Positions 1 through 12,868 of a stretch of 12,995 bases of DNA are shown in pieces. The stretch spans positions 1-12,995 of IMG/VR virus record IMGVR_UViG_3300022561_000567; one strand, 5' to 3'. The stretch comes from a virus. The notes under the pieces are model-generated. The model was not told the origin of the DNA and ran no database searches. It was given only the letters and a program-made list of their open reading frames with translations. The position numbers were made by a program, and so were the translations under genes. The stretch's first letter is position 1. Every line of letters starts with the position of its first letter.

Positions 1-127
1 TTAGTACCGGGCCGTGGATATATTGATATATGGACAGCTCAAAACCGTATATTGACCTGACCACATACCAACATAACCACAACCCCTACAGGCTACGATT
101 TTTATAATTTTCCCAAGAACTGGGGAA
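1..127. repeat. Terminal direct repeat, copy 1 (identical to 12869-12995)
   Basis: I aligned the two window ends by hand. ttagtaccgggccgtggatatattgat...cccaagaactggggaa occurs at 1-127 and again at 12869-12995 with no mismatch. The repeat runs to the last base of the window, as expected for a circular contig overlap or a direct terminal repeat. Confidence 0.95.
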
Positions 128-170
128 CGTTTTTGTTATCTCCAATAGGTAAATATGTTCAAATAAGGTA

Positions 171-192
171 TTGACTATCAATCTAGTATAAT
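171..192 (+). promoter_or_regulatory. Possible promoter for the large non-coding transcript
   Basis: TTGACT at 171-176 and a perfect TATAAT at 187-192 lie in an AT-rich tract just before the GC-richer structured region. The two hexamers are only 10 nt apart, so they cannot both belong to one canonical sigma-70 promoter. The -10 is the stronger element. Confidence 0.35.
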
Positions 193-640
193 GATAGGTC
201 CAGGTGGTGAGTGTAGCAGAGGAAGCCCTGCCCTGTCTAAGTTTGCAGGGCAATTAGGCTTATTTCGGTCCAGTATGGAGCCGCTCGCTTTCGTTGCTTG
301 TACACGTTATCCCTCTCGGTCTGGCATTATGGGTATGGTATCAAACCATGAACGTGTCTGCCTCATCTGCCGCTTGCATTTGCGGCATCCCAGGACGGTT
401 TTTCTCCTAGTGCATGCCCAGGAGATCACTTCAGGAGTCGCACCTGAAGGCATCGAGAAAACTAATATCCTTTTAACGGATGAGCCTCCACTGATGAACG
501 CGGAGCAAGATTCGGCGTCTCTTATGCCCTTCAGGGCATTAAAAAAAGACACCCAGCGAAATTCTTCCAATCGCTGTTTGTCCTACTGTCTGTTCTATTT
601 ATCAACCTATAACTAAATATATCACAATATTAGTTATTTT
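193..640 (+). ncRNA. Large structured RNA candidate, class unknown
   Basis: The segment is visibly GC-richer than its flanks. The overlapping ORFs 191-616 (+) and 307-570 (-) have no Shine-Dalgarno and give Cys/Arg/Ser-rich, non-protein-like translations. Hand folding finds many local helices: 223-227/257-261 with 231-235/246-250, 302-308/351-357 closing a multiloop, 368-373/382-387, 429-435/443-449, 524-529/534-539 and 554-559/571-576. A possible end-closing helix is 194-199/605-610, with 214-220 pairing to 589-597. An AT-only hairpin (ATAACTAA 609-616 / TTAGTTAT 630-637) followed by TTTTTAT could be a weak 3' end. Strand is assigned from the plus-oriented terminators downstream. Confidence 0.5.
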
Positions 641-644
641 TATC

Positions 645-674
645 TTGATTTTCACACCAAGAATGAGGTAAAAT
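645..674 (+). promoter_or_regulatory. Possible sigma-70-like promoter for a short RNA
   Basis: TTGATT (645-650), an 18-nt spacer, then TAAAAT (669-674). It lies about 50 nt upstream of a strong plus-strand terminator, with no ORF in between. Confidence 0.35.
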
Positions 675-680
675 ACATGT

Positions 681-765
681 AAGTATCCAACCTTGCTGAT
701 TGCGTAGAACAGTCAGTGGGACGCACCTCTGAACGGCTTGCCGGCTGTTCAGGGGTTTTTACTTT
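681..765 (+). ncRNA. Small RNA candidate of about 85 nt, or the 3' tail of the large RNA
   Basis: It sits between the putative promoter at 645-674 and the terminator at 726-765. It has an internal hairpin, ctgatt/agtcag, around 696-716. There is no start codon with an RBS. Confidence 0.3.
726..765 (+). terminator. Rho-independent terminator, plus strand
   Basis: A 12-bp stem pairs cctctgaacggc (726-737) with gctgttcagggg (744-755), including two G-U pairs, around the 6-nt loop ttgccg. It is followed by TTTTT (756-760) and cTTTTT. The reverse complement has no T-run, so it works in the plus direction only. Confidence 0.85.
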
Positions 766-873
766 TTATTTGATTAATAGCATATTTCTCCATAAAATTA
801 TTAATTCCTCTAAATAAAACAAAAATTTATAAAATATTGGGGAAGCCGTACCCCTCCATCACATAGACGAAGG

Positions 874-1305
874 CTAATCAAACAACTTTCCCCACCACGA
901 CTTTGGCTTTATATCGTTTTTAATATTTAATAACCGGAGTCTTTCATCCACCATTTTGTAATGCTCATTCAGCATTACGTCTTGCTTGTCCAGTTTTTCA
1001 TTAAGCACTTGAACTTGCTCTTTAAGTGGCTGCAACTCAGCCTGTACGGCACTAGTTACCGCACTTGCTATAGTGCGCGCCATAGCCTGTTCTAGCTCCG
1101 CCACGCTCACTGAGCGCGTTACTGGAATAACTTCAATATCTTGCATAGCCTTGTTGATCGTTTCTGCAGGGATCATCCACTGTAATCCGTAATCGCCAAT
1201 CTGTTTCTCAGCTTCAATTTCTTTTGACTTTATGCGTCTGCGTATAGTATCCTTTGAAACCTTCAATAAATCCGCACACTGTTCGATTGTGAGCCATTCA
1301 GCCAT
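874..1305 (-). CDS. Excisionase-type (HTH_17 / MerR superfamily) DNA-binding protein with a C-terminal coiled coil
   Basis: 143-aa ORF. The N-terminus, LTIEQCADLLKVSKDTIRRRIKSKEIEAEK, is the typical excisionase-family helix-turn-helix. The C-terminal half is heptad-like (LQPLKEQVQVLNEKLDKQDVMLNEHYKMVDERLRLL). A GGAGGT RBS lies 6 nt upstream of the ATG at 1305. Confidence 0.8.
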   Translation of the reverse strand: MAEWLTIEQCADLLKVSKDTIRRRIKSKEIEAEKQIGDYGLQWMIPAETINKAMQDIEVIPVTRSVSVAELEQAMARTIASAVTSAVQAELQPLKEQVQVLNEKLDKQDVMLNEHYKMVDERLRLLNIKNDIKPKSWWGKLFD

Positions 1306-1455
1306 GCTATAACCTCCACACGTTGCTTATATGTAATGCCTTATGATATTGCCATTCGGCACGATGATTATAAATCCTGCCAGTCGTGGCGGTAAAAAGG
1401 TGAAATATTAAAAAGTCTGCATAGGGTATCCCTATAATATTGCATAATGCACATG

Positions 1456-1482
1456 AAAAAAGCAGGGGTATTGGTCCCCTGC
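1456..1482 (-). terminator. Rho-independent terminator for the 2218-to-1504 operon
   Basis: On the minus strand, GCAGGGG accaata CCCCTGC (plus-strand arms 1462-1468/1476-1482) is followed by TTTTTT (plus-strand A-run 1456-1461). It lies directly downstream of the ORF ending at 1504. Confidence 0.75.
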
Positions 1483-1503
1483 AGGGCTGTTATTATTATT
1501 GTT

Positions 1504-1812
1504 CTATCGAACCGAACCGACAAAGTCCACTGTGGAAGATAATGTGTATTTTATTATTCTATTAACCGTACCCTCAAAACTAAGATCCAATTTTTTAGCT
1601 AAAACATCAATTTTAGCTATTAATTCAGCATCATCAATTGTTACAATCAAATCAACACTATCCATAATACACGCCCCTATTTTATTTATTTTGCATAATG
1701 CGACACAATTTGATAAAATAAGTGTATCGCAAGTTCCTGATTCGATCTTGCTGCAATCCCTGGCTCGTTCGCTATTAGTAGTAGTGAGCGGGCTTTTATT
1801 TATTTGTCCCAT
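1504..1812 (-). CDS. Ribbon-helix-helix (CopG/Arc-like) domain protein; start uncertain
   Basis: The C-terminal 50 aa, DLIVTIDDAELIAKIDVLAKKLDLSFEGTVNRIIKYTL, fit the strand-helix-helix pattern of RHH regulators. The long form starts at 1812 and overlaps the upstream stop, with a weak RBS. The internal ATG at 1665 has an AGGGG RBS 8 nt upstream and would give a 53-aa stand-alone RHH protein. The overlapping plus-strand ORF 1499-1822 looks spurious. Confidence 0.6.
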   Translation of the reverse strand: MGQINKSPLTTTNSERARDCSKIESGTCDTLILSNCVALCKINKIGACIMDSVDLIVTIDDAELIAKIDVLAKKLDLSFEGTVNRIIKYTLSSTVDFVGSVR

Positions 1813-2021
1813 TCTCGTTTAATAACTTCATGCGCATGGCAACTTACTAACCATTGCCCCTCAAGGCTCTTTATGACCACCATGAATCGTTCATCAGCAT
1901 CGATACTACTTTCAGTTACTACCATTCCTTTTGGTGGCACGCTCATTGATCCCCTGCAAGCAACAACCGTCATAACGACACTTTTTTCTTCTATTCCGAT
2001 ATTACACGTCCATTTACTCAT
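1800..2021 (-). CDS. Hypothetical protein, 73 aa
   Basis: The ORF is coupled to the upstream gene by an ATGA start/stop overlap at 2018-2021, and its own end overlaps the next ORF. I recognise no motif. Confidence 0.5.
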   Translation of the reverse strand: MSKWTCNIGIEEKSVVMTVVACRGSMSVPPKGMVVTESSIDADERFMVVIKSLEGQWLVSCHAHEVIKREWDK

Positions 2022-2218
2022 TGGTCGGCAGCTCCTTTTTTGGCCTTGCGAAGTTTTTCAACAGCTTCCTCGCTAAATAAGTAATTACGACTACCGGCTT
2101 CGCGCATTTCAGAATCATTAAGTTCTAGCTTGCGTGCCAGTTTAATTACATAAGAAGCATTTAATTTAAGGTCCTCAGCAACTTCACGAGTAATAAAAAC
2201 TGTTTTGACGTCTGACAT
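2018..2218 (-). CDS. Small MerR-like HTH DNA-binding protein, 66 aa
   Basis: The ORF track extends to 2266. The ATG at 2218 is preceded by AGGAGGTGG about 5 nt upstream and lies downstream of a near-consensus promoter, so I use 2218. The HTH-like segment TREVAEDLKLNASYVIKLARKL is followed by SRNYLFSEEAVEKL, which is typical of MerR-superfamily wings. Confidence 0.7.
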   Translation of the reverse strand: MSDVKTVFITREVAEDLKLNASYVIKLARKLELNDSEMREAGSRNYLFSEEAVEKLRKAKKGAADQ

Positions 2219-2237
2219 TAATCCACCTCCTGAGATA

Positions 2238-2266
2238 ATAATACTACGTTCGTTGTCGAATGTCAA
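2238..2266 (-). promoter_or_regulatory. Near-consensus sigma-70 promoter for the HTH operon, with an overlapping palindromic operator
   Basis: On the minus strand, TTGACA (plus 2261-2266), a 17-nt spacer, then TATTAT (plus 2238-2243). The perfect 10-bp palindrome AAACATGTTT (2265-2274) overlaps the -35. Confidence 0.7.
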
Positions 2267-2305
2267 ACATGTTTATAATAATATGTTTAAGGCTTTTTTA
2301 CGTCT

Positions 2306-2395
2306 GATAATAGAAACTTATCGGAAATATAATCGCGATTTTCGTGCATTTCAAATTAACGATAATAGAAACTTATGGATAACTAGAAACTAAAT
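2306..2395. repeat. Direct repeats GATAATAGAAACTTAT, two perfect copies plus one degenerate copy, in a divergent control region
   Basis: Identical 16-mers lie at 2306-2321 and 2361-2376, 55 bp apart. A third copy with a one-base insertion (gataaCtagaaact) lies at 2378-2392. All sit between the divergent genes starting at 2218 (-) and 2646 (+). Confidence 0.55.
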
Positions 2396-2520
2396 TAACA
2401 TAGCAAAAAATATCTACAGTTCACTCCCTGCAGGGATGTGCTCAACCTACCCTCTAACCTCCACACTTCGCCGCTACGCCATTTTATTATATAAGTAATA
2501 CATTTATACAACCTATGTAA

Positions 2521-2576
2521 TATATAAAGTGCTGGTCCTATCTTTAGGACTTCATCAGCACTTTATATATTTTTTT
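2521..2576 (+). terminator. Long hairpin plus T-run upstream of the MazF-like gene (terminator or attenuator)
   Basis: The outer stem pairs tatataaagtgctg (2521-2534) with cagcactttatata (2556-2569). The inner stem is gtccta/taggac (2535-2540/2545-2550), with a 5-nt bulge. It is followed by TTTTTTT (2570-2576). There is no T-run on the opposite strand. Confidence 0.55.
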
Positions 2577-2645
2577 CATTAAAAAGAAGGAAATAACTGG
2601 TTATCGTCTAATAATTTATCTGATTAATAGAAAAGAGGTATTGCA

Positions 2646-3257
2646 ATGTCTGACGAAATAGAATCAGTAGAAGTTCAAACCGCATTGGACGAAATCCAAA
2701 ATAGTCTTGAAGATTTAAAGCAGACTGTCATTATTAAGAATAAAAACCAAAACATTTGGCTAAAAAAAATGGAACATGGCCTAAAGATTATTAAATGGTC
2801 TAAAGAAAAATATAGGATGCAATTTATAGCTCCACCTCAATATGTTTTTCAGCGCGATATTTTCTATTGTCACTTAGGGGTAAATATAGGGCAAGAGGAG
2901 TATTGGGATAGGCCTGTCGTTGTATTGCAAAATGACTTAGGAAATAAAAGCTCCACTACTACAATTATCGCTCCAATTACAACTTGCGAGGGCAGCACTT
3001 TAAAAGAATTAAATGGGGAATGGTTTTTAGACTCGCTTGAATTGGACGGAACAACAAAAAGCAGAAAACTATATTACTTTGAAATCTGCGTAGAATTAGA
3101 ACCTAATTTTAAAAAAGAAATTAAAGGTATTATAAATTTAGCTCAAATAAGAGTCATAAGTAAAAAAAGGCTTATATCTCCTGATGTAGCTAAAATCACA
3201 GTCGGCACGAAAAATAAGATAAACCAATCATTAAAGCGACTTTTAAATATATGTTAA
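2646..3257 (+). CDS. PemK/MazF-family endoribonuclease toxin homologue with an N-terminal extension of about 60 aa
   Basis: 203-aa ORF with an AAAGAGG RBS 7 nt upstream. Residues 70-113, RDIFYCHLGVNIGQEEYWDRPVVVLQNDLGNKSSTTTIIAPIT, closely parallel the Bacillus MazF/NdoA core [43 protein letters not shown]. The C-terminal LAQIRVISKKRL matches LEQIRTIDKQRL. The first 25 residues hold 8 Asp/Glu and look helical. Confidence 0.85.
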   Translation: MSDEIESVEVQTALDEIQNSLEDLKQTVIIKNKNQNIWLKKMEHGLKIIKWSKEKYRMQFIAPPQYVFQRDIFYCHLGVNIGQEEYWDRPVVVLQNDLGNKSSTTTIIAPITTCEGSTLKELNGEWFLDSLELDGTTKSRKLYYFEICVELEPNFKKEIKGIINLAQIRVISKKRLISPDVAKITVGTKNKINQSLKRLLNIC

Positions 3258-3304
3258 AAAAAACCATTGCGCTAGATTGACACCTAGTCTATACTTAAGT
3301 CAAT

Positions 3305-3488
3305 ACAACATTTAGCGTTCGGTACTTTGTACAGAACAAACGGACAACTTTGAGCGGCCAGCATTTTATGCTGGCCAAACGTATAATATCTTTGATAATT
3401 GGGGCATATAATATAAAAACAACTTTTAGCGTCTTAGTTTTTACTAAGACAATAGCCAACTTTTAGCGGCCAGCATCTTATGCTGGCC
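3305..3488 (+). repeat. Four units of a conserved 12-13-mer, (A/C)CAAC(A/T)TT(T/G)AGCG, each followed by a 20-21-nt hairpin
   Basis: Unit 1 is acaacatttagcg (3305-3317) with hairpin 3317-3337 (gttcggtac ttt gtacagaac). Unit 2 is acaactttgagcg (3344-3356) with hairpin 3356-3376 (ggccagcat ttt atgctggcc). Unit 3 is acaacttttagcg (3419-3431) with hairpin 3431-3450 (gtcttagt tttt actaagac). Unit 4 is ccaacttttagcg (3456-3468) with hairpin 3468-3488 (ggccagcat ctt atgctggcc). The stem sequences differ between units but pairing is kept. Two TATAAT boxes (3382-3387 and 3407-3412) separate the two pairs of units. Confidence 0.7.
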
Positions 3489-3524
3489 ATTTACTTTACC
3501 CATTTTTTTTTAATACTTAATAAC

Positions 3525-3552
3525 AAAAAAAAGCCCTGACAATATCGTCAAG
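3525..3552 (-). terminator. Probable rho-independent terminator, minus strand
   Basis: On the minus strand, CTTGAC gatatt GTCAGG (6 bp including one G-U pair), then GC, then TTTTTTTT (plus-strand A-run 3525-3532). Confidence 0.5.
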
Positions 3553-3658
3553 ACTTTATCAGCACAACATATATAATTTTGCTAAGACAATAAAGCACGA
3601 TTGCAATGTCAATAATTATAAAAGTCATGCACGCCTGGTACATCAATAGCAATTCCAC
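3548..3658 (-). CDS. Possible 36-aa hydrophobic peptide (type I toxin-like or holin-like); not in the ORF track
   Basis: I translated this by hand. A GTG at 3658 lies 5 nt after GAGGTG. The product is (M)ELLLMYQACMTFIIIDIAIVLYCLSKIIYVVLIKS, with the stop at 3548-3550 inside the terminator hairpin. In-frame ATGs at 3643 and 3628 would give 31-aa and 26-aa forms. It is short enough to be a chance ORF. Confidence 0.3.
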   Translation of the reverse strand: MELLLMYQACMTFIIIDIAIVLYCLSKIIYVVLIKS

Positions 3659-3705
3659 GCTCTCACCTCATGGCTATTATTGCCATAAATAAGGTATTAA
3701 AATCA

Positions 3706-3900
3706 ATTTGGCGGATGGGACGGATTGGACGGAATTTCAATAAACTCTCTATATATACTATTCTCTCATGATGGTTTTACTATTATTATGTCCATTCCGT
3801 CAAAAAAAGAAATATAAAACAGTATAAAGCCATAGCACGTAAGGGTTTTCGGCATTTGGCGGAAGGGTAAAAAAAGGCGTTTATCCGCCTATTCCGCCAA
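3706..3900. repeat. Cluster of GG(C/A)CGGA(A/T) repeats: three in tandem, plus dispersed direct and inverted copies
   Basis: The tandem run is tggcggat / gggacggat / tggacggaa at 3709-3734. An inverted partner, gtccattccgtc, lies at 3790-3801. The 10-mer ATTTGGCGGA recurs at 3706-3715 and 3854-3863. An inverted TTGGCGGAAT lies at 3891-3900. Confidence 0.55.
3868..3890 (-). terminator. Weak terminator overlapping the stop codon of the 94-aa gene
   Basis: On the minus strand, AGGCG gataaa CGCCT (a 5-bp stem) is followed by TTTTTT. The short stem means low confidence. Confidence 0.4.
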
Positions 3901-4173
3901 TATTTTCTGTTCTTCGTCTTGAAAAAATGTAATTACCTTTTGAATTTTTAATTTCAGGCAATCAACTTCGTCGGTATTTTTATTGAGTTCAAATGCTTGC
4001 ATAGCTGATACTATTATTTTTTCCTTATCATCTAACCTTCCCCATAATTCTATAAATTTAATATGATCATTTTCTTCAGTAGCTTTAGATAAATCACCAC
4101 ATATTTTACATATATTATCTACAAACTCTTGATCCTTGCTAAACAGATCTACCCATTCATACATTTGAATCAT
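3889..4173 (-). CDS. Hypothetical acidic helical protein, 94 aa
   Basis: The ORF has an AGGGGGA RBS 7 nt upstream of the ATG at 4173. The sequence is rich in D/E/K and looks helical. I recognise no motif. It is convergent with the MazF-like gene. Confidence 0.6.
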   Translation of the reverse strand: MIQMYEWVDLFSKDQEFVDNICKICGDLSKATEENDHIKFIELWGRLDDKEKIIVSAMQAFELNKNTDEVDCLKLKIQKVITFFQDEEQKILAE

Positions 4174-4224
4174 TTATTAATCCCCCTATAAATTATTTGC
4201 AAAAACTAATTTTTTATATTTGAT

Positions 4225-4257
4225 ATTCCCTGGCGAAATGTTTTCTATGCAGGGAAT
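4225..4257. promoter_or_regulatory. 8-bp inverted repeat upstream of the 94-aa gene (operator or RNA hairpin)
   Basis: ATTCCCTG (4225-4232) and CAGGGAAT (4250-4257) are separated by 17 nt. The repeat lies about 50-80 nt upstream of the start at 4173. Confidence 0.35.
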
Positions 4258-4380
4258 TTTCATTGTGCCTGTTTGAAATACGCACTTAGGAGTTGACGCT
4301 TTTAGCTCTCAACTCGTGATAATGTTTTGCCATTCGCGGCCGCTCTTTGAACCTTCGGTTATTCCCTATTGGTGAAAATA

Positions 4381-4414
4381 AAAAGAACCTACTAAATTTA
4401 AAGTAGGTTCTTTT
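4381..4414 (-). terminator. Strong bidirectional rho-independent terminator after the tape-measure gene
   Basis: A 13-bp perfect stem pairs aaaagaacctact (4381-4393) with agtaggttctttt (4402-4414) around an 8-nt loop. It is flanked by an A-run on one side and a T-run on the other, so it has a U-tract on both strands. It lies 11 nt downstream of the stop at 4425. Confidence 0.85.
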
Positions 4415-4424
4415 TATTTATTAT

Positions 4425-6863
4425 TTAATAACCATTTGCTGTCTCTCCTAGCGCATTTAATAATGGGACCTTGATCCGGTCGGCCACTTTATCCGCTAGC
4501 GTGCTAATGTCTGTATCGTTATTTACCGTGGCATTTATTGGCATGCTAACTGTGATTGTATTCGTGGCGCCGACAGCCTTGGCTTGCTGCGGGAATTTCA
4601 GTATGTTTGTAATATCGCTAAACCCCTTCATTATTTCAGTTATTTGATATGCACTATTCCCATCAATTACCGTACTTCTTTTCATATCTCCAGGCAGATA
4701 CACGCCGCTTCGATTCCTAGAATAAACCTCTGCCTCTGCCTCTGCTGCCTTGTCTGCTAATACTTTTTCATGCGCTTTTTTATAAGCATCAGCTTTATTT
4801 TCGCCGGCCAATATTGCCGCCTTTACTGCTCTAATTTCCTCGCTTAATTCGGAATTAAGGGTATCTTTAAATAATTTTTGTTTTTGATGCTCAGCCAATT
4901 GTGTGGCTTTTACTTCATCATTGGTCTTTTTGATCCACTCTTGCCGCTCGATATCAATATCACGCAGCCGGTTCTCTAACGACGTGTGACTAATTTTATA
5001 TATTTCCGTTTCCATTTGTTCCGTGGATTTTTTGATTTCCTTGTTTTTATCATCAATAACTTTTTGCTGTTCCTTGGCGTCTTTATCTAAAATTATTTTT
5101 TTCCTGGCAGCGGATATTGTGGCCACGGTTTCATCTGAAACATTTGCCTCGGACAACTTAGCGCTCTTTACATCAACGTCGTGCAACTCATTTTCTAGCG
5201 CCGAATGAGTGGATTTATAAACCTCGTCGGCCATTTCAATTAACGCCGCCTTATTGGCCTTGGCTGCGTCCATTTCTTTTTTCTTAGCCGCAACTATAGC
5301 GCCGGCCTGATCGGCTGCGATCCGCTTCGTTTCCTCTGCTGCTTTTTTAGCATCGGCGACCGCTGTGTCTTTAATCGCTTTTTCATCAGCAGCAAATTTC
5401 GTCTGTACCGCGATTGCGTCAATTGCATCTTGCCGGTAATTATTTATGTGACCTTTTAGCGGCGTTAAATTCATAACGTCATTAACGACATTATCTAAAA
5501 GTGTATGCTTTTTCAATTGCATTAACCCAATTTTTAACTCTGTTAGCGCCTCGGTCGTTGAATGTATGCCGGAAATATCAAAAACAAATTTCGGGACGCT
5601 TAAAATTGCGGATCCCAGGTCTTTAACTAATTTTAAAAATTCAACCCCAACGCCAACCGTCGCGACAATTTCCTCTTTATTGTCTTTTACTGCGGTTATT
5701 AACGTATCAAATCCCGCGATAACTCCGGGCAAAATCTCTTTTGCAATCGGCATTAATGCCATTCCTAGCGCGTTCGACATTTGAGCTGATTCTAGATTTA
5801 AAACCTTAAATTCCACGGCTAAATCATGCGCCTGCTGCGGATCAATACCAATCGTTTTTATTCTGCTTGCGGCCTCCGCATTTATAGCATAATCACGTAA
5901 GACTGGAACCAGCGCGGCGCCTTTTGCCCCTAGAACATCAGCGACAAAGGCCTCTTCTTCTCCTGCTGCAGCCGCGTTTTTATAACCCTGGGCTAGCGCT
6001 GCCAATTGGTCATTCATCGGTAATAATTTTCCAGCTGAATCAAGAATGGAAAAATTAAATAACGTCATTGCATCAGTCAACGCGTTCCCGTTTTTTCCCA
6101 CGTTCATTACTGATTTATCCATTTTTATCATTGTTGAAATAAATATTTGTGAATCAACATCTGAAATTTTTAAAACTCTATTTAAACTTCCGGCCTCCGC
6201 TGCTGTTAAATTTAATCTTGCTGCTAGTTTATACGCTGCATCGCCAGCCTCAACCGCGCCTTTAACGACGTTAAATAAACCGGCTCCACTTGCGGCCACC
6301 GCTGCTAATGCAATCATTTTAGTATTTATCATCGTAAGCGCATTGCCGGCCGACGCGCCCGCGTCCCTAACTCGGCCTAATGATCCGGCCAATAACCCTG
6401 CCGCAGCGCTGGCGGCATTTGTGTTTCCGGTATTCAGCGAACCCCCTGCAGCACCTCCTGCCCTGGCTGCATTAGTTTCCTTCAATTGCCTGGCAAGATC
6501 CGCCTCGGCTTTTTGCTCTCTTAGCAACCTGGTTAAAATTCGCTGACTGGCTGCGTCGTCTGCTCCCTTGGCTGCAACTGATTCCTGGTATGTCGCATTA
6601 ATTAAACTAACCGCCTGCCTTTGTATGTTTAACTGATCGGTCAAATGTTTAGTTTTTACGGCTAGCGCCTCCGTAGACCTCTCGGCGCCGGCGAACGCTG
6701 ACATATCTATTTCCATTCGTAATTTTGATTGCTGCGCCTTGGTCTTTAAACTAGACATGCCTTGATTAACGGTTTTGCTAGCCGTGAGCAAATCAGAATC
6801 TAGCGCCGTCATGTCCAACCCTAACGATATAAATAATTTTTCAATTGTGGTCCCTGCGGCCAT
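4425..6863 (-). CDS. Phage tail tape-measure protein, TP901-family core
   Basis: 812-aa ORF with a GGGGTG RBS. It has an N-terminal coiled coil and an Ala/Gly-rich hydrophobic segment. The core region, AYKLAARLNLTAAEAGSLNRVLKISDVDSQIFISTMIKMDKSV...LGAKGAALVPVL, is typical of tape-measure core domains. The long K/E/A coiled-coil C-terminal half carries an internal repeat, EVYKSTHSALENELHDVDV / EIYKISHTSLENRLRDIDI, encoded near 5180-5230 and 4960-5010. Confidence 0.8.
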   Translation of the reverse strand: MAAGTTIEKLFISLGLDMTALDSDLLTASKTVNQGMSSLKTKAQQSKLRMEIDMSAFAGAERSTEALAVKTKHLTDQLNIQRQAVSLINATYQESVAAKGADDAASQRILTRLLREQKAEADLARQLKETNAARAGGAAGGSLNTGNTNAASAAAGLLAGSLGRVRDAGASAGNALTMINTKMIALAAVAASGAGLFNVVKGAVEAGDAAYKLAARLNLTAAEAGSLNRVLKISDVDSQIFISTMIKMDKSVMNVGKNGNALTDAMTLFNFSILDSAGKLLPMNDQLAALAQGYKNAAAAGEEEAFVADVLGAKGAALVPVLRDYAINAEAASRIKTIGIDPQQAHDLAVEFKVLNLESAQMSNALGMALMPIAKEILPGVIAGFDTLITAVKDNKEEIVATVGVGVEFLKLVKDLGSAILSVPKFVFDISGIHSTTEALTELKIGLMQLKKHTLLDNVVNDVMNLTPLKGHINNYRQDAIDAIAVQTKFAADEKAIKDTAVADAKKAAEETKRIAADQAGAIVAAKKKEMDAAKANKAALIEMADEVYKSTHSALENELHDVDVKSAKLSEANVSDETVATISAARKKIILDKDAKEQQKVIDDKNKEIKKSTEQMETEIYKISHTSLENRLRDIDIERQEWIKKTNDEVKATQLAEHQKQKLFKDTLNSELSEEIRAVKAAILAGENKADAYKKAHEKVLADKAAEAEAEVYSRNRSGVYLPGDMKRSTVIDGNSAYQITEIMKGFSDITNILKFPQQAKAVGATNTITVSMPINATVNNDTDISTLADKVADRIKVPLLNALGETANGY

Positions 6864-7087
6864 AAAGTCACCCCTTTTATAAAATACTTAAATTGTTATT
6901 TCTTTAAATACAATCCCCTGTATATTTGGACTGTAAGACCTCGAAACATAGGCTAAGTCTTAGACTACACCGGTCATGTAGCGGCTTGTGTATTGAGAGA
7001 ATAAGTAGCTTCGGCTTTCCGTAAACTTAATCTTCTTGTAAATACCGGGGGCCCTTACTATTTGCATACCAATACCTTGTTCCATGT

Positions 7088-7115
7088 AAAAAAATAAGGA
7101 CAGCCGAAGCTGCCC
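7088..7115 (-). terminator. Rho-independent terminator after the capsid gene
   Basis: On the minus strand, GGGCAGC TTCG GCTGTCC (7 bp with one G-U pair and a UUCG tetraloop; plus 7098-7115) is followed by TTATTTTTTT. It lies 16 nt downstream of the capsid stop. Confidence 0.85.
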
Positions 7116-7130
7116 CCCATTTTATTTTAA

Positions 7131-8327
7131 TTAAGCTTTGTAAAGTTTTACAAAAGCTTCAGACGCTATTGGTTTGCAGTCGGCCGTTGCCGTTACTTTG
7201 TAATCAATAAGGTTTGATTTAAAAGATGATTCTCGGCTCATTTCAATCAATACATTTGTAAGGTTATAGCCCATATACTGGAAGTTACCGAAGTAAATCA
7301 CATCATCAGCAATAGAATCTGATATGATTACTGGCTTGCCTAGTAAGAAAGCTGGTGCACCTTCAATAGCTGCGTTCTGCACAAATATAGGGCGACCATT
7401 ACTATCAACAATAGAATAGGCTTGATTGTATAGTGTTGCGTTATTCATCGCCCATGATGCACCCGCGCTATATCCACCCTTTAACATCCCAGCTACTGCG
7501 GTATAGTCCTTAAATCCAGGACCGGTAACAAATGTTTTGCTATTCGCTGCAGTAAAGGTAATGCTTGATAGTCCTGCACCTTGATCAATACCAGTACCAA
7601 CCGCGACAGCTGCCTCCATTGCATCTAGCAAGCAATTCGCAAGCTCTCCTGTCAGATATGCTTCAAACGCACCGATGGCCATTGACGATGAGCTTGCACT
7701 GATAGAGAATATTTTAATCAGTTCATAAGCATTAAACATAACGCTCAAAACATTAGGATCAACTGCGGTTACTGGCGCACCCTCAACATGCCACGCCGCA
7801 GCGGATGAAGGACTTGCGACCGGCACACTCAGCTTTGCAGGGATATTAAAGTTCCTGCTTGCCGTTACTAAACCACGAAGGCCGCGCGCTTTAGTGATTA
7901 CTTGATCATAAGTTTGTGTAGGAAGTACGGCCGCTAAACTGGATTGATTGCCAAAGGCTGCGCGTTGTTCCATAATGGCCTTATATGCTCTTTGCTCAAT
8001 ATCAGTTAGTGGCTTGTTTTGCAGTGTCTTGAAAAATGCGTTGCGGTACTCAGGAGTTTTGATGATTGCTTCAACATCAGTCGGCAATTCAACGCTTTGA
8101 GTAGTTGCTCCGGCAATTGGAGTAAAGCTTTGATTATTCATATTTGCCGCACCTCTTTTTTCAATATTGTTTTGAATAACTTCATTCAATGCAGCTAGTT
8201 CAGTTTGCAATTCATCTAAATTAGCTTTATTTTCTGTTCTTAACTCAGTGCGAATCGCCAACTTGCGGACCTCAACTTGTTCATTTGTCATTTCCTTATG
8301 TTTGTTAAAATATTCTGCTACTGTCAT
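7131..8327 (-). CDS. Major capsid protein, HK97 fold, with an N-terminal delta/scaffold-like coiled coil
   Basis: 398-aa ORF. The first 60 aa or so are coiled coil (EQVEVRKLAIRTELRTENKANLDELQTELAALNEVIQN). The body carries HK97-family signatures, AAAWHVEGAPVTAVDP...ELIKIFSIS...YLTGELANCLLDAMEAAVAVGTG. It sits directly downstream of the portal gene. Confidence 0.9.
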   Translation of the reverse strand: MTVAEYFNKHKEMTNEQVEVRKLAIRTELRTENKANLDELQTELAALNEVIQNNIEKRGAANMNNQSFTPIAGATTQSVELPTDVEAIIKTPEYRNAFFKTLQNKPLTDIEQRAYKAIMEQRAAFGNQSSLAAVLPTQTYDQVITKARGLRGLVTASRNFNIPAKLSVPVASPSSAAAWHVEGAPVTAVDPNVLSVMFNAYELIKIFSISASSSSMAIGAFEAYLTGELANCLLDAMEAAVAVGTGIDQGAGLSSITFTAANSKTFVTGPGFKDYTAVAGMLKGGYSAGASWAMNNATLYNQAYSIVDSNGRPIFVQNAAIEGAPAFLLGKPVIISDSIADDVIYFGNFQYMGYNLTNVLIEMSRESSFKSNLIDYKVTATADCKPIASEAFVKLYKA

Positions 8328-8413
8328 TTAACTTCACGCTCCATACTTTGATACACCAATATTAGGGAAGTGTGGCCCAGGTGCTCGGTAAATAACACTT
8401 ATTGTGCCGCCAA

Positions 8414-8485
8414 CCCATCCAGGCTGTCATGTAGGCTGTCCAGCGTCCATGCAAGGCTATATAAAGCCCAATCCAGGCTGTTATG
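8414..8485. repeat. Three copies of AT(CC/GT)AGGCTGT in the portal-capsid intergenic region
   Basis: ATCCAGGCTGT occurs at 8417-8427 and 8471-8481, and ATGTAGGCTGT at 8429-8439. The extended matches are cccATCCAGGCTGTcATGT (8414-8432) and cccaATCCAGGCTGTtATGT (8467-8485). The last copy overlaps the portal stop codon. Confidence 0.55.
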
Positions 8486-9704
8486 TCTGAATATTGTCTA
8501 TTGGTTTTAATAGCTTTTTGTCTACTCCTGCAAGCTGATAAGCTGCGGCGTTTTTTTGATCTACATAATTTAACGACTGCAGCCTGCGCGATCCTTCCTC
8601 GCCTCCTACTGGCGGGAACCCCAGGACAGACAATGCTTGATCTAAAGTTAATAGTGATAATGGCATTAATTCTTTTAACGCCGTTATTTTTGTTTTTTGT
8701 GAAGAAAACGCCATTCTCCCTGCAGTGTCAATGCTAATTGTATTACCCCAGGCTTGTTCCCTTTGCGTGAACATTTTAGCCGTCAAGGCTTGTCCTAGCG
8801 CGTTGGCGAAAGGCTCCAGGCTCGACTCTACGAAGCTAGAATATATATCTTCTGTAAAGGTACCATCAACAATAGCCTGGTTGATTCCTAAAAAACTAAG
8901 AATCTTTTTACTTACTGCCTCAATGTCTGCAGCATTAATAGTTATTGGCGTTTGATTAATTGGCGTATATGTAAACTTTGCATCTAGCGCGGCAATTGTT
9001 GAACCACCTGGCGCCAAATATGTTTTAATAAACTCTTGTCGTTGTTTTTCAAGATCCTCGGGCCTTAGTACGGAACTGTACGAAAGTATAGCTTTGATCG
9101 TTCCGCTAGTTTCAATATTTTTCTTTAATCCATCTGTTTGAGCTGTCGATAATGCAACCGCCGGAAGTATAGCCGCGTTTGAATCTCCTAGTAAGTCATT
9201 ACCATGGAATACTCTGCGAATATGCACGATATCAGCATAAGGCAATATTACTGTTTGCCCTGCAGCGAATATAAACTTGATATATAGCGCGCTTGATTGA
9301 TCTTGAACAAATTGTGCCGACGTCGGTTTTAATGGCCATAATGCATTCACGCTGCCGCCCCGGGACCATTCTATTAGTATAAATAGGTCACTATCGCTCC
9401 AATAAAGTGAAGCGCATTTATAAAGAAATTCACTCGCTGTACTAACCGGATTCGGCTGTATCGAAAGCAATCTATTTAGCTGCTGATCACCCGGACTTTG
9501 CGCGCCACTATAGGCGACTATGTGAGATATTTGCATTTTTGAAGCGTGACGGCTCACACTATCAACTGCGCTGAAAAATACGTCTGACTGTCTCAGATTG
9601 CCGCTAAATGCTGTAGATATGGCATTACCGCCACTAAGCATCATTACTTGTTCAGTTTTTTGCGGCTGTTCACGTGAGAATATTTTTTTTAAATCCTCAA
9701 ACAT
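8481..9704 (-). CDS. Portal protein, HK97 family
   Basis: 407-aa ORF with a GGAGG RBS 8 nt upstream. The pattern IQPNPVSTASEFLYK...LFILIEW...ALWPLKPTSAQFV...YIKFIFAAGQTVILPYADIVHIRRVF matches the conserved core of Phage_portal (HK97-type) proteins. The gene order portal then capsid agrees. Confidence 0.85.
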   Translation of the reverse strand: MFEDLKKIFSREQPQKTEQVMMLSGGNAISTAFSGNLRQSDVFFSAVDSVSRHASKMQISHIVAYSGAQSPGDQQLNRLLSIQPNPVSTASEFLYKCASLYWSDSDLFILIEWSRGGSVNALWPLKPTSAQFVQDQSSALYIKFIFAAGQTVILPYADIVHIRRVFHGNDLLGDSNAAILPAVALSTAQTDGLKKNIETSGTIKAILSYSSVLRPEDLEKQRQEFIKTYLAPGGSTIAALDAKFTYTPINQTPITINAADIEAVSKKILSFLGINQAIVDGTFTEDIYSSFVESSLEPFANALGQALTAKMFTQREQAWGNTISIDTAGRMAFSSQKTKITALKELMPLSLLTLDQALSVLGFPPVGGEEGSRRLQSLNYVDQKNAAAYQLAGVDKKLLKPIDNIQT

Positions 9705-9740
9705 TTATTTTTCCTCCAATTTTAAAATTAAGATAAAAGG

Positions 9741-10004
9741 TTATTTATTTATTTTTGTCAGAAATTTATCCCCGGGAAAATTCCCTGCATACCTAGATCC
9801 TGCAGATACTTGAACGCCTATTTGATTAATGTCAAATCCCATGCGTTTTATCGTTCGCTTGAAATTGCTTAATGGAACACGCCAACCGTATGGAGTTTTT
9901 TCAAACTCAGACCGTATTTTTTCAAAACAAAACCATTGAATTATTCCCGGATGTCCACATAATCGGAGCTTTAACCATTTAATTAACTCAGCATTATGGC
10001 CCAT
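9741..10004 (-). CDS. Hypothetical protein, 87 aa, immediately upstream of the portal
   Basis: The ORF track starts at a TTG (10022). The ATG at 10004 lies 5 nt after GGAGAGG, so I prefer it. It overlaps the preceding ORF by 11 nt, which suggests translational coupling. It occupies the position where a small terminase usually sits, but I see no recognisable motif. Confidence 0.55.
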   Translation of the reverse strand: MGHNAELIKWLKLRLCGHPGIIQWFCFEKIRSEFEKTPYGWRVPLSNFKRTIKRMGFDINQIGVQVSAGSRYAGNFPGDKFLTKINK

Positions 10005-10212
10005 CATTCCCTCTCCGTTCAATTCTTAAAAAATTACTTGGGCTTGCTGCATCGTCGATCCAGCCGTCTGTGCCCATATCCATGGAAAGTACATTTCCGT
10101 CGCTTGTTAGTGCTAAACAAATTATTGGTGATTCTATTTCCTGATTGTCATTTTTATAAATTGCAAATAGATTTTTAGGCGCTGGCATTATTTGAATTAT
10201 TTTATCTGTCAT
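9994..10212 (-). CDS. Hypothetical protein, 72 aa
   Basis: The ATG at 10212 has an AAGGAG RBS 8 nt upstream. It is the first gene after the origin. I recognise no motif. Confidence 0.6.
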   Translation of the reverse strand: MTDKIIQIMPAPKNLFAIYKNDNQEIESPIICLALTSDGNVLSMDMGTDGWIDDAASPSNFLRIERRGNDGP

Positions 10213-10229
10213 GTTTTTATCTCCTTTTT

Positions 10230-10481
10230 GTCTACCCTTTGTCTACCCTTTGTCTACCCTCGCCTAGACACCTTCAACCCTTATGAATACTAGCTTCGTG
10301 ACGTGTGTCTACCCTGTCTACCCAAATTTATACCCCTTTTCCCTGTTTGCCCCTCTATCTGTTTTTTACCAACTCTTTTAATAGAAAAAGGGTAGACAGG
10401 GTAGACAATGCCTTTCAGCCCTTATAAAACCTAGGTTTATTCTTGTCTACCCCCCTAGACATTTGCCTAGACAGGGTAGAC
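10230..10481. repeat. Iteron-type replication origin: nine GTCTACCC repeats plus three CCTAGACA repeats
   Basis: Forward GTCTACCC lies at 10230, 10241 and 10252 (11-bp phasing) and at 10307, 10316 and 10445. Reverse GGGTAGAC lies at 10390, 10399 and 10474. CCTAGACA lies at 10263, 10454 and 10466. The repeats flank a pyrimidine-rich, AT-rich core (10324-10389). The cluster abuts the 3' end of the VapE-like helicase gene and slightly overlaps it. Confidence 0.75.
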
Positions 10482-11933: not shown

Positions 11934-12096
11934 CTTTAGTCACCAACCGTATGCCGTGATTAATTTTCATCATGTTATTTACCGCGTCCATTGGCACTTT
12001 ATCGGATACCCCAAATAAATTTTTGGCATCAAGTTTTTCCTCGCGTCGTTTGATTTTTCGCTGCTCTCGTTGACGTTCTTTTTGATTTTTTGACAT
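11923..12096 (-). CDS. Small basic protein, 57 aa, translationally coupled to the helicase; not in the ORF track
   Basis: I translated this by hand as MSKNQKERQREQRKIKRREEKLDAKNLFGVSDKVPMDAVNNMMKINHGIRLVTKDGF. An AAAGGAG RBS lies about 10 nt upstream of the ATG at 12096. Its stop (11923-11925) overlaps the helicase start (ATGGATTTTAA). Confidence 0.5.
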   Translation of the reverse strand: MSKNQKERQREQRKIKRREEKLDAKNLFGVSDKVPMDAVNNMMKINHGIRLVTKDGF

Positions 12097-12163
12097 AATA
12101 AAAAACTCCTTTGCGGGTACTACCTTTGCAGCACATCCCGGCTTTATACCTCACTATATACTT

Positions 12164-12190
12164 TATATTATTCATTTGACGAGTATAACA
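12164..12190. promoter_or_regulatory. 27-bp operator box upstream of the small-ORF/helicase operon
   Basis: tatattattcatttgacgagtataaca matches the box at 12772-12798 at 23 of 27 positions. It is an imperfect palindrome and is embedded in A/T-rich -35/-10-like hexamers (TTATAC...TATAAA on the minus strand). Confidence 0.55.
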
Positions 12191-12206
12191 CGTTATAAAA
12201 TCCAGC

Positions 12207-12758: not shown

Positions 12759-12771
12759 AACCTCACCCCTT

Positions 12772-12823: not shown

Positions 12824-12868
12824 GTCTTTTAGATTAAGTATTTGATTTGTATTAAATTAATGATCAGT

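What the first reader, a model, noticed from the sequence alone, without database searches (positions are those of the whole stretch)
3305..3488. Repeat units that conserve a 12-mer and a hairpin shape but not the hairpin sequence
Seen in the sequence: the motif CAAC(A/T)TT(T/G)AGCG occurs four times. Each copy is followed directly by an 8-9-bp stem with a 3-4-nt loop. Three different stem sequences are used (gttcggtac, ggccagcat twice, gtcttagt). The two ggccagcat copies differ only in the loop (ttt versus ctt). The units come in two pairs (spacing 39 and 37 nt) separated by a 42-nt spacer with two TATAAT boxes. Inference: keeping pairing while the stem sequence changes points to selection on structure, either RNA or extruded single-stranded DNA. 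It does not fit a CRISPR array, where repeats are identical and spacers are unique. It also does not fit simple terminators, because only the last unit has a nearby T-run. Possible roles are protein-binding RNA modules (antitoxin or decoy), processing sites, a packaging (pac or cos) recognition region for a helper terminase, or single-strand initiation signals.
Basis: seen in the sequence. Interest (0 to 1): 0.7.

Follow-up and report, generated by a model that had tools for sequence, protein, structure and literature searches.

The report
RNA partner of a MazF-like toxin
The four "12-mer plus hairpin" units are real and form a conserved small structured RNA that always sits just downstream of a rare long form of the MazF toxin gene and has no protein antitoxin beside it, so it is most likely an undescribed RNA antitoxin rather than a packaging or replication signal.

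Summary
Observation confirmed. CAACWTTKAGCG occurs exactly four times (3306, 3345, 3420, 3457; 0.21 expected). Each copy abuts an 8-9-bp hairpin. The units form two homologous two-hairpin modules (3303-3380 and 3417-3492).

The window is a complete circular ~12.9-kb satellite-like element, but the repeats do not travel with its capsid, portal or helicase genes. They travel with the gene just upstream (2646-3257, +), a 203-aa MazF/PemK-family endoribonuclease with an N-terminal two-helix extension.

About 30 homologous "long-form MazF" loci were examined, in unrelated contexts (Bacillus cereus group, Clostridium, Thermoanaerobacterium, phage contigs, metagenomes). All lack a conserved neighbouring ORF. 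All carry hairpin RNA on the same strand right after the stop codon, nearly always as repeated [single-stranded motif + hairpin] units. 20 of 25 have a near-consensus promoter there.

Stems covary (13 of 15 pairs compensatory; 11 G·U versus 0 A·C). Motif types track toxin clades. About 170 ordinary mazF loci give no covariance-model hit, and neither Rfam nor PADLOC gives a match.

Best explanation: a type III-like RNA antitoxin for a MazF-family toxin. This is inferred, not demonstrated. Pac/cos, sso, iteron, CRISPR and antisense readings are not supported. Novelty: new variant of a known kind.

The parts
2646..3257 (+). Long-form MazF/PemK-family endoribonuclease gene (203 aa), the putative toxin. 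It has an N-terminal two-helix extension (residues about 2-59), a MazF core, and a beta-strand insertion at about 117-148.
   Evidence: Pfam PF02452, E = 1.5e-14. The PDB profile search gives B. subtilis EndoA/YdcE as best hit, 1.4e-17. AF2 pLDDT is 88, and the Foldseek top 50 are all MazF. R89 and T112/T113 are invariant and align with the 'RPV' and 'AAIT' segments of EndoA.
3267..3295 (+). Weak promoter-like site ahead of module 1: TTGCGC-17-TATACT, 8 of 12 matches. A perfect TTGACA at 3277-3282 lies only 7 nt from the -10 hexamer.
   Evidence: Relatives have 10-12 of 12 promoters at the equivalent place. In the window, read-through from the toxin gene is equally possible, because no terminator separates them.
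3303..3380 (+). RNA module 1 (units 1 and 2).
   Evidence: Covariance model R1: 81.8 bits, E = 1e-13.
3306..3337 (+). Unit 1: single-stranded motif CAACATTTAGCG (3306-3317) plus hairpin GTTCGGTAC-ttt-GTACAGAAC (3317-3337, one G·A mismatch).
3345..3376 (+). Unit 2: motif CAACTTTGAGCG (3345-3356) plus hairpin GGCCAGCAT-ttt-ATGCTGGCC (3356-3376).
   Evidence: The orthologous stems in L007 differ by compensatory or wobble changes.
3377..3419 (+). 43-nt A+T-rich spacer with TATAAT at 3382-3387 and 3407-3412. The second box lies 7 nt before unit 3, the same distance from -10 to motif as in relatives. There is no good -35.
3417..3492 (+). RNA module 2 (units 3 and 4).
   Evidence: Covariance model R1: 81.6 bits, E = 1e-13.
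3420..3450 (+). Unit 3: motif CAACTTTTAGCG (3420-3431) plus hairpin GTCTTAGT-tttt-ACTAAGAC (3431-3450).
3457..3488 (+). Unit 4: motif CAACTTTTAGCG (3457-3468) plus hairpin GGCCAGCAT-ctt-ATGCTGGCC (3468-3488).
   Evidence: The scan flags it as terminator-like.
3489..3512 (+). T-rich tail (ATTTACTTTACCCATTTTTTTTT), the probable 3' end of the RNA locus.
3530..3557 (-). Intrinsic terminator of the convergent minus-strand transcription. It marks the right-hand border of the toxin/RNA module.
   Evidence: 12-bp stem followed by TTTTTGTTAT.

Best explanation
Region 3303-3492 encodes, on the + strand, two tandem copies of a ~75-nt small RNA. Each copy consists of two units, and each unit is a conserved single-stranded motif followed by a hairpin. 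This RNA is the dedicated partner of the gene just upstream, a long-form MazF/PemK endoribonuclease.

Proposed mechanism, by analogy with type III toxin-antitoxin systems:
1. The RNA is made in excess, from its own promoters and/or as the 3' part of the toxin transcript.
2. Each unit presents its clade-specific single-stranded motif to the toxin's substrate groove as a pseudo-substrate. Its hairpin docks on the family-specific additions to the protein (the N-terminal helical hairpin and the beta insertion).
3. This holds the RNase inactive. The toxin may also cut the precursor at the motifs into units of about 37-39 nt.
4. When transcription of the element stops, for example on loss of the element or phage-induced shut-off, the RNA decays and the freed RNase arrests the cell. 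That would give the 12.9-kb circular satellite-like element an addiction or abortive-infection function.

Shown here:
- the repeats and hairpins exist
- they are strictly linked to this toxin family, on the same strand
- the stems covary
- motif type tracks toxin clade
- no conserved ORF neighbours the toxin gene
- the toxin keeps the conserved R89 and T112/T113 positions that align with B. subtilis EndoA

Inferred:
- the RNA binds and inhibits the toxin

Speculative:
- processing at the motif, the stoichiometry (one two-unit RNA per MazF dimer), and the trigger
For: Linkage to the toxin gene:
- The protein belongs to a rare family. Only 18 hits came from the 90% clusters, and only 21 clusters at 50% identity reach E <= 1e-30 among 1.84 billion representatives.
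- About 30 distinct homologous loci were examined: B. cereus group chromosome beside hsdR and a serine recombinase, Clostridium intestinale, Thermoanaerobacterium, Desulfosporosinus, Alkaliphilus, Eubacterium, IMG/VR phage contigs and metagenomes. In all of them the 200-340 nt after the stop codon hold hairpins on the toxin strand.
- In nearly all of them these form two or more units of repeated single-stranded motif plus hairpin. L096 and L257 show only one clear unit.
- Four further loci fetched as a prospective test all showed hairpin RNA downstream: two modules in L254 and L255, two units in L256, one unit plus a terminator in L257.
- Hairpin census of the first 330 nt downstream: 26 of 26 long-form loci have at least 3 perfect hairpins, and 23 of 26 share a flank word of 5 nt or more. 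For ordinary mazF loci the figures are 30 of 177 and 14 of 177.

Specificity of the covariance models:
- R1 and R2 hit only the + strand directly after long-form genes. Neither hits any ordinary mazF control locus: R1 was run on about 170, R2 on 71.

Structure is under selection:
- 97.7% of cells pair, against 78% in shuffles and 27-42% in slid controls. 13 of 15 pairs show compensatory changes.
- The second clade gives 13 of 16 pairs with compensatory changes.

Strand and molecule:
- 11 G·U versus 0 A·C in the stems.
- 20 of 25 loci have a promoter matching at least 10 of 12 consensus positions, starting -3 to +70 nt from the stop codon.

No protein partner:
- No conserved ORF of 25 aa or more lies within 500 nt upstream or 700 nt downstream across 22 loci.
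- Neighbouring genes differ in every context.
- The window has no MazE-like small ORF.

Co-diversification:
- Motif types A1, A2, A3, B and C coincide with toxin clades.

Toxin looks active:
- MazF fold, with the conserved Arg and Thr positions retained.

Precedents:
- ToxN-type toxins are structural relatives of MazF with extra elements that bind the RNA (PMC3401426).
- In AbiF/RCd22, an ncRNA with two motif copies neutralises its toxin by direct binding (bioRxiv 10.1101/2025.04.15.648962).
- The unit period of 35-41 nt resembles the 36-nt ToxI repeat.
Against: - There is no experimental evidence of transcription, binding, toxicity or rescue.
- In the window itself the module promoters are poor: 8 of 12 for module 1, and a -10 box without a -35 for module 2.
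- Gene order is the reverse of classical type III loci, where the repeats and a terminator lie upstream of the toxin.
- The units are hairpins of differing sequence, not identical tandem repeats or pseudoknots.
- The CAAC/ACAAC motif is not depleted in the toxin ORFs (20 observed versus 18 expected). This gives no independent sign that it is the cleavage site.
- The N-terminal helical hairpin could itself be an in-cis inhibitor, which would leave another role for the RNA.
- The covariation counts were made on alignments fitted to the model, and the sequences are related.
- Searching for the RNA independently of the toxin was possible only in viral contigs.
Confidence: 0.6

Rival explanations
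1. Cis-acting 3' element of the toxin mRNA. The hairpins would be a stack of terminators or 3'-end stabilisers, or an autoregulatory site where the RNase cuts its own message. No trans-acting antitoxin would be involved. The toxin would instead be restrained by its own N-terminal helical domain, or would be only weakly toxic.
For: - No terminator separates the toxin ORF from unit 1, and the window's own module promoters are weak.
- In relatives the last hairpin of a module is often followed by a T-run.
- The family has a conserved N-terminal extension of unknown role.
Against: - 20 of 25 loci carry a near-consensus promoter between the stop codon and the first unit, and clade A loci have a second promoter before module 2. 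This implies independent and abundant transcription.
- Terminators do not need a conserved, clade-specific single-stranded motif in front of every hairpin.
- Units 1-3 in the window have no T-run.
Confidence: 0.17
2. Base-pairing regulator (type I-like, or a general sRNA). The small RNAs would act by antisense pairing, either on the toxin mRNA to block its translation or on other host or phage transcripts.
For: The RNAs are small, promoter-driven and next to a toxin gene. Their exposed conserved single-stranded stretches could serve as seed regions.
Against: - The RNA lies on the same strand as the toxin gene and does not overlap it.
- Predicted duplexes between 14 modules and their toxin translation-initiation regions are no better than shuffles (z from -0.5 to +2.1).
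- The single-stranded motif changes with the toxin clade rather than with the toxin leader sequences.
Confidence: 0.07
3. DNA-level signal of the mobile element: replication iterons flanking an A+T-rich spacer, a single-strand origin, or a pac/cos recognition site for a helper terminase.
For: - The window is a small circular capsid- and portal-encoding element without a terminase.
- Two pairs of repeats flank an A+T-rich spacer.
- Two relatives lie near rolling-circle Rep-like genes.
Against: - The architecture follows the toxin gene into contexts with no phage structural or replication genes, for example between hsdR and a recombinase in the B. cereus group.
- It always starts within about 70 nt of the toxin's stop codon, on its strand.
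- G·U pairs are tolerated and A·C pairs are absent (11 versus 0). That fits RNA from one strand, not duplex or extruded DNA.
- Protein-bound iterons would conserve sequence, yet the stems vary freely.
- A separate iteron-like cluster exists at 3710-3898.
Confidence: 0.04
4. Guide-like or processed RNA array. The MazF-like RNase would work like Cas6, cutting the array at the conserved motif. The released hairpin RNAs would have a function of their own, such as decoys for a phage protein or sensors, rather than inhibiting the RNase.
For: The layout is a repeated motif plus hairpin next to a sequence-specific RNase, with variable stems between units and between loci.
Against: - There are only two to four units per locus.
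- No effector gene is conserved nearby.
- The variable parts are self-complementary stems, not free spacers.
Confidence: 0.07

Closest known systems
Type III toxin-antitoxin systems (ToxIN, CptIN, TenpIN, AbiQ/antiQ)
   Same: - An endoribonuclease toxin with no protein antitoxin.
- An adjacent non-coding locus made of repeated units of about 35-45 nt. Here the unit period is 37-39 nt, against 36 nt for ToxI.
- Frequent carriage on mobile elements.
- ToxN is a structural relative of Kid/MazF, with extra elements used to hold the RNA (PMC3401426). The long-form MazF likewise has family-specific additions.
   Different: - The toxin is a sequence-level member of Pfam PemK/MazF, not of the ToxN, CptN or TenpN families.
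- The RNA lies downstream of the toxin, usually with its own promoter(s), instead of upstream with a terminator in between.
- The units are simple hairpins whose stems differ from one another, each preceded by a conserved single-stranded motif. They are not near-identical tandem repeats that fold as pseudoknots.
- Inhibition and processing have not been tested.
Type II MazEF / PemIK / EndoA-EndoAI modules
   Same: The toxin has the MazF fold and signature segments (RPVV..QN..ITT..). Its best solved relative is B. subtilis EndoA/MazF.
   Different: - No mazE/pemI-like gene lies upstream or anywhere adjacent, in any of about 30 loci.
- The protein is about 90 residues longer, with an N-terminal helical hairpin and a beta insertion.
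- A conserved structured RNA occupies the neighbouring position.
AbiF / RCd22 (abiF RNA motif) and AvcID
   Same: These are recently described "type III-like" pairs in which a toxin from a family other than ToxN is neutralised by an adjacent structured ncRNA. RCd22 contains two copies of a conserved motif and binds its toxin directly. AvcI RNA inhibits the deaminase AvcD (PMC10511110).
   Different: The toxin folds are unrelated (Abi_2/HEPN-like, deaminase), and so are the RNA sequences and structures. Position relative to the toxin gene was not compared here.
pemK RNA motif (Rfam RF02913)
   Same: A conserved structured RNA that is genomically tied to PemK/MazF-family genes in Bacillota.
   Different: - RF02913 is a 61-nt multi-stem element located upstream of ordinary short pemK genes. 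It was found here in 7 control loci at 36-73 bits.
- It matches neither the window, even at E <= 10, nor 20 long-form loci at the gathering score.
- It shares neither sequence nor architecture with the units described here.

Membership tests
Type III TA (sensu Blower et al. 2012, PMC3401426) | The toxin belongs to the ToxN, CptN or TenpN protein families. | tested here: not met
   Pfam gives only PF02452 PemK_toxin. PDB sequence and fold searches return MazF/EndoA/Kid proteins only.
Type III TA (sensu Blower et al. 2012, PMC3401426) | [quoted passage not shown] | tested here: not met
   The units lie downstream of the toxin, are spaced 39, 75 and 37 nt apart, and have three different stems. 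The criteria are quoted.
Type III TA (functional definition: an RNA antitoxin that binds a protein toxin) | No protein antitoxin, and an adjacent conserved non-coding RNA locus co-inherited with the toxin. | tested here: met
   context and ORFs; RNA models and covariation.
Type III TA (functional definition: an RNA antitoxin that binds a protein toxin) | The RNA binds and neutralises the toxin, and the toxin processes the precursor. | not testable with these tools
   Needs toxicity and rescue assays, co-purification and end mapping.
Type II MazEF/PemIK | MazF/PemK-fold toxin with the conserved catalytic Arg and Thr. | tested here: met
   R89 and T112/T113 are invariant across 17 family members and align with the corresponding segments of EndoA. 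AF2 model plus Foldseek.
Type II MazEF/PemIK | A co-operonic protein antitoxin gene (MazE/PemI: AbrB, RHH or similar) next to the toxin. | tested here: not met
   No conserved ORF of 25 aa or more in the flanks of 22 loci. No candidate in the window. Called neighbours differ in every locus.
pemK RNA motif RF02913 | Match to the Rfam covariance model at the gathering score, upstream of pemK. | tested here: not met
   No hit in the window at the gathering score or at E <= 10, and none in 20 long-form loci. The model does detect its own family in control loci.
CRISPR array | Identical direct repeats alternating with unique spacers of similar length, with cas genes or a leader nearby. | tested here: not met
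   The conserved part is 12 nt. The variable parts are self-complementary stems. There are only four units and no cas genes.
Replication iterons / pac or cos site of the satellite | Sequence-conserved protein-binding repeats linked to the element's replication or packaging genes. | tested here: not met
   The linkage is to the toxin gene, across unrelated elements and chromosomes. The strand-specific G·U pattern points to RNA.
Intrinsic terminators | A G+C-rich hairpin immediately followed by a U-run. | tested here: inconclusive
   In the window only unit 4 qualifies. In relatives the last hairpin of a module often has a T-run. Termination is therefore probably a secondary role of some hairpins, not the explanation of the units.

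The most novel reading that the evidence does not exclude
A true MazF/PemK-family RNase, the archetypal type II toxin, is held in check not by a MazE protein but by a dedicated hairpin-repeat RNA encoded just downstream. This would be a fourth family of type III-like systems. It could also be an evolutionary bridge between MazEF and ToxIN-type modules, with a clade-specific single-stranded motif acting as pseudo-substrate and the toxin's extra domains clamping the hairpins.
Probability: 0.55. Interest if true: 0.85.

Novelty: new variant of a known kind. Interest (0 to 1): 0.75.

Why it matters
MazF toxins are the textbook type II toxins, always described with a protein antitoxin. ToxN-type type III toxins were noted to share the MazF fold, but no sequence-level MazF has been reported with an RNA antitoxin in the literature searched here.

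If the inference holds, four things follow:
- It adds a new toxin/RNA family to RNA-antitoxin systems.
- It shows that one toxin fold can switch between protein and RNA inhibitors.
- It supplies a compact pair of a sequence-specific RNase and its RNA inhibitor.
- It identifies likely addiction or abortive-infection cargo on phage satellites, prophages and defence islands of Bacillota.

The hypothesis can be tested directly, because members occur in sequenced Bacillus cereus group and Clostridium intestinale genomes. It also flags "solitary" MazF annotations as possibly incomplete.

Tried and rejected
Searches that found nothing:
- blastn of 3200-3700 against the phage collection: no match.
- Exact or degenerate unit patterns in viral contigs: none. 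An A2-type pattern gave one chance hit inside a coding sequence with no toxin nearby.
- Rfam, at gathering score and at E <= 10: nothing relevant for the window or for 20 relatives.
- tRNA/tmRNA scan: none.
- PADLOC: no hit for the toxin or its neighbours.
- tblastn of the toxin against plasmids: no match.
- Relatives of the 812-aa neighbour in viral contigs, sought to see whether sister elements carry the module: none.

Tests with no signal:
- Antisense pairing of the RNA with the toxin translation-initiation region: no better than shuffles (the first attempt timed out).
- Depletion of CAAC/ACAAC in toxin ORFs as a hint of the cleavage site: none.

Interpretations rejected: CRISPR, iteron/ori, pac/cos, sso and plain terminators. 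The reasons are given in the membership table.

Technical points:
- MAFFT alignments of whole modules mis-registered the variable stems. Covariation was therefore counted on model-fitted alignments, which lean towards the structure.
- The main text of the paper behind the pemK motif (Weinberg et al. 2017) does not discuss that motif.

Full report
**1. The observation.**
- CAAC(A/T)TT(T/G)AGCG has four exact copies at 3306, 3345, 3420 and 3457, all on the + strand. Dinucleotide-preserving shuffles give 0.21 matches.
- The last G of each copy opens a hairpin:
  - GTTCGGTAC-ttt-GTACAGAAC (3317-3337, one G·A mismatch)
  - GGCCAGCAT-ttt-ATGCTGGCC (3356-3376)
  - GTCTTAGT-tttt-ACTAAGAC (3431-3450)
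  - GGCCAGCAT-ctt-ATGCTGGCC (3468-3488)
- The spacings are 39 and 37 nt.
- The spacer is 43 nt and holds two TATAAT boxes (3382-3387 and 3407-3412).
- A repeat search adds that the region is a diverged tandem duplication of roughly 112-114 nt (78% identity), so it consists of two homologous two-hairpin modules.
- The + strand of 3296-3500 folds far better than shuffles (z = -4.97).

**2. Context.**
- The window carries a 127-nt terminal overlap. The same sequence was assembled at least six times from different metagenomes as contigs of 12.9-13.0 kb with different start points. It is therefore a complete circular element of about 12,868 bp.
- The element encodes an HK97-type capsid protein, a portal, a VapE-type helicase/primase, an 812-aa tape-measure-like protein and several small HTH/excisionase-like proteins. 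No terminase or integrase was found. It looks like a satellite or mini phage-plasmid of a Bacillota host (portal relatives).
- The repeats lie between convergent transcription units. On the left is a + strand gene (2646-3257). On the right is a minus-strand terminator at 3530-3557.

**3. The neighbouring gene.**
- ORF 2646-3257 encodes a 203-aa protein whose residues 69-199 match Pfam PemK_toxin.
- A family profile finds B. subtilis EndoA/YdcE (MazF) as the best solved relative (1.4e-17).
- The AlphaFold model (pLDDT 88) shows an N-terminal two-helix hairpin (residues 2-59), a MazF core and a beta-strand insertion. The 50 best Foldseek matches are all MazF proteins.
- R89 and T112/T113 align with conserved 'RPV' and 'AAIT' segments of EndoA and are invariant in the family.
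- The family is rare. There were 18 hits in the 90% clusters, and only 21 clusters at 50% identity with E <= 1e-30 among 1.84 billion representatives.

**4. The decisive comparison.** I fetched the DNA around homologues in five rounds:
- by exact protein
- from GTDB genomes
- from IMG/VR
- from metagenomes
- four further proteins as a prospective test

About 30 distinct loci encode a full-length ("long-form") relative. Their contexts have nothing in common:
- a B. cereus group chromosome, between a type I restriction hsdR gene and a serine recombinase
- Clostridium intestinale, next to Rep-like genes
- Thermoanaerobacterium, Desulfosporosinus, Alkaliphilus and Eubacterium
- large phage contigs

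Every one of them has two properties.
- No conserved ORF lies beside the toxin gene. An all-against-all comparison of every ORF of 25 aa or more in the flanks of 22 loci found nothing shared, except one pair between two close relatives that lies inside the RNA region.
- The 200-340 nt after the stop codon hold hairpins on the same strand, in nearly all loci as two or more [single-stranded motif + 7-11-bp hairpin] units. Exceptions: L096 (truncated toxin ORF) and L257 each show one clear unit.

In 20 of 25 loci a promoter matching at least 10 of 12 consensus positions begins -3 to +70 nt from the stop codon.

The closest relative is the B. cereus group locus (about 50% protein identity). It reproduces the window's layout unit for unit:
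- ...TTTAGCG-ACTCAAAC-tca-GTTTGGGT
- ...TTTAGCG-GATAGCAT-tca-ATGCTGTCC
- ...TTTAGCG-TTTTGGAC-taa-GTCCAAAA
- ...TTTAGCG-GTCAGCAT-tca-ATGCTGACC

Here the GGCCAGCAT stem of the window changes by compensatory (C-G to U-A or A-U) and wobble substitutions.

**5. Statistics.**
- Covariance model R1 was built from seven modules. It scores the two window modules at 81.8 and 81.6 bits.
- R1 hits only the + strand just after long-form genes of clade A. It gives no hit in about 170 ordinary mazF loci totalling roughly 0.9 Mb.
- On the 20 aligned modules, 97.7% of cells pair, against 78% in shuffles and 27-42% with slid partners. 13 of 15 pairs show double changes.
- A second model for clade B behaves the same way: 13 of 16 pairs have double changes, and there are no hits in the 71 control loci searched.
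- These alignments are model-fitted and the sequences are related, so the numbers overstate independence. The perfect hairpins are nevertheless visible by eye in every locus.
- A model-free census gives at least 3 perfect hairpins in the first 330 nt downstream in 26 of 26 long-form loci, against 30 of 177 ordinary mazF loci. A shared flank word of 5 nt or more occurs in 23 of 26 against 14 of 177.

**6. RNA, and which strand.** The stems contain 11 G·U pairs and no A·C pairs. That pattern is expected only if the + strand transcript is the selected molecule. It argues against extruded DNA and against a minus-strand RNA. Promoter positions agree.

**7. Co-diversification.** The single-stranded motif differs between toxin clades and is constant within them:
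- CAAC/CTTC-N-TTKAGCG (window and B. cereus)
- ACAAC-N6-9 (clade A2)
- CATCGTTTAGTG (A3)
- ACTAATAATGTGT (B)
- ATAGCAG/AGTAGCA (C)

A UPGMA tree of 23 toxins groups exactly by motif type. This is what a specific protein-RNA recognition pair would produce.

**8. Mechanism.**
- The best explanation is an RNA antitoxin of the type III kind for a MazF-family toxin. The single-stranded motif would occupy the substrate groove, and the hairpin would be gripped by the family-specific additions to the protein.
- The unit period is 37-39 nt here and 35-41 nt in relatives. That resembles the 36-nt ToxI repeat, which makes processing into units plausible.
- Precedents for non-ToxN toxins neutralised by adjacent ncRNAs exist: AbiF/RCd22, which has two motif copies, and AvcID.
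- Linkage, structure, strand, absence of a protein partner and an apparently intact active site are shown. Binding, inhibition and processing are inferred.
- Two tests gave no signal: antisense complementarity to the toxin's translation-initiation region and depletion of CAAC in the toxin ORFs.
- Caveat specific to this window: its module promoters are weak. TTGACA at 3277-3282 lies only 7 nt from TATACT, the best canonical pairing scores 8 of 12, and module 2 has a TATAAT without a -35. Here the RNA may be made largely by read-through from the toxin gene.

**9. Comparison with known families.**
- Classical type III loci are defined by a ToxN, CptN or TenpN toxin preceded by a terminator and a tandem repeat array (PMC3401426). 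This locus fails those structural criteria while fitting the functional idea.
- It fails the type II criterion of an adjacent protein antitoxin.
- The known pemK RNA motif (RF02913) is a different, 61-nt element upstream of short pemK genes. It was detected in seven control loci but never in long-form loci.
- No paper in the searchable library describes a MazF/PemK toxin with an RNA antitoxin. That library lacks most subscription journals, so prior description cannot be excluded.

**10. Verdict.**
- The structural inference is right.
- The antitoxin/decoy reading is favoured (confidence about 0.6, and about 0.9 that this is a functional RNA tied to the long-form MazF gene).
- Packaging and replication readings are rejected.
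- Novelty: new variant of a known kind.
- Interest: 0.75.

Noticed in passing
window 1-12995 (whole): The window is a complete circular element of about 12,868 bp. It has a 127-nt terminal overlap and was assembled at least six times from different metagenomes with different start points. It encodes a capsid, a portal, a VapE helicase/primase and an 812-aa tape-measure-like protein, but no recognisable terminase, protease or integrase. This fits a satellite-like or mini phage-plasmid of a Bacillota host.
   Followed up: partly
window 3710-3898: Iteron-like cluster. Seven of the ten window matches to GRCGGAW fall within 190 nt, in both orientations (3710, 3719, 3728, 3858 on +; 3795, 3883, 3892 on -), around an A+T-rich core. 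The stretch is gene-free and bounded by minus-strand terminators at 3530-3557 and 3875-3890. It is a better candidate for an origin or protein-binding site than the finding's region.
   Followed up: partly
window 2304-2577: The toxin leader carries ATACAAC (2506-2512), which resembles the unit motif. A long imperfect hairpin follows (2520-2570), then a T-run (2571-2577) on the + strand. A promoter-like site lies upstream: CTGATA-18-TATAAT at 2304-2333. This could be an attenuator or terminator in front of the toxin gene, or a separate small RNA. It was not seen upstream of the toxin in the four relatives inspected.
   Followed up: partly
window 2000-4500: G+C is 33-34% across the toxin/RNA module and its surroundings, against 39-45% in the structural and replication genes. 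This fits horizontally acquired cargo.
   Followed up: no
L055 2858-2919; L060 2843-2942; L084, L090, L027, L148, L040: The known pemK RNA motif (Rfam RF02913) sits upstream of ordinary short PemK/MazF genes in seven control loci. This is a second, unrelated case of a MazF-family gene tied to a structured RNA. Whether those genes also lack a protein antitoxin was not examined.
   Followed up: no
window 9602-9613 (-): The only other near-match to the 12-mer is CAGCATTTAGCG (one mismatch). It lies on the sense strand near the 5' end of the portal ORF. This may be chance, or it may be a site the RNase recognises in the element's own late mRNA.
   Followed up: no
window 3577-3592: TTTTGCTAAGACAATA is a 94%-identical copy of the 3' arm plus linker of unit 3 (3439-3454). 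It lies beyond the minus-strand terminator and may be a remnant of a decayed third module.
   Followed up: no
L173 1-580; L022 1-208: Two long-form mazF/RNA loci lie just downstream of tRNA gene clusters (seven tRNAs in L173, two in L022). This suggests insertion at tRNA-linked hotspots.
   Followed up: no
L201 1498-2136 and about 130-230 nt downstream: A more distant 212-aa MazF-like protein has an N-terminal extension and a C-terminal coiled-coil tail. It also has two hairpins downstream (GCTCTAAAT...ATTTAGAG, then a terminator-like stem). The toxin-plus-RNA arrangement may therefore extend beyond the 21 clusters counted.
   Followed up: partly
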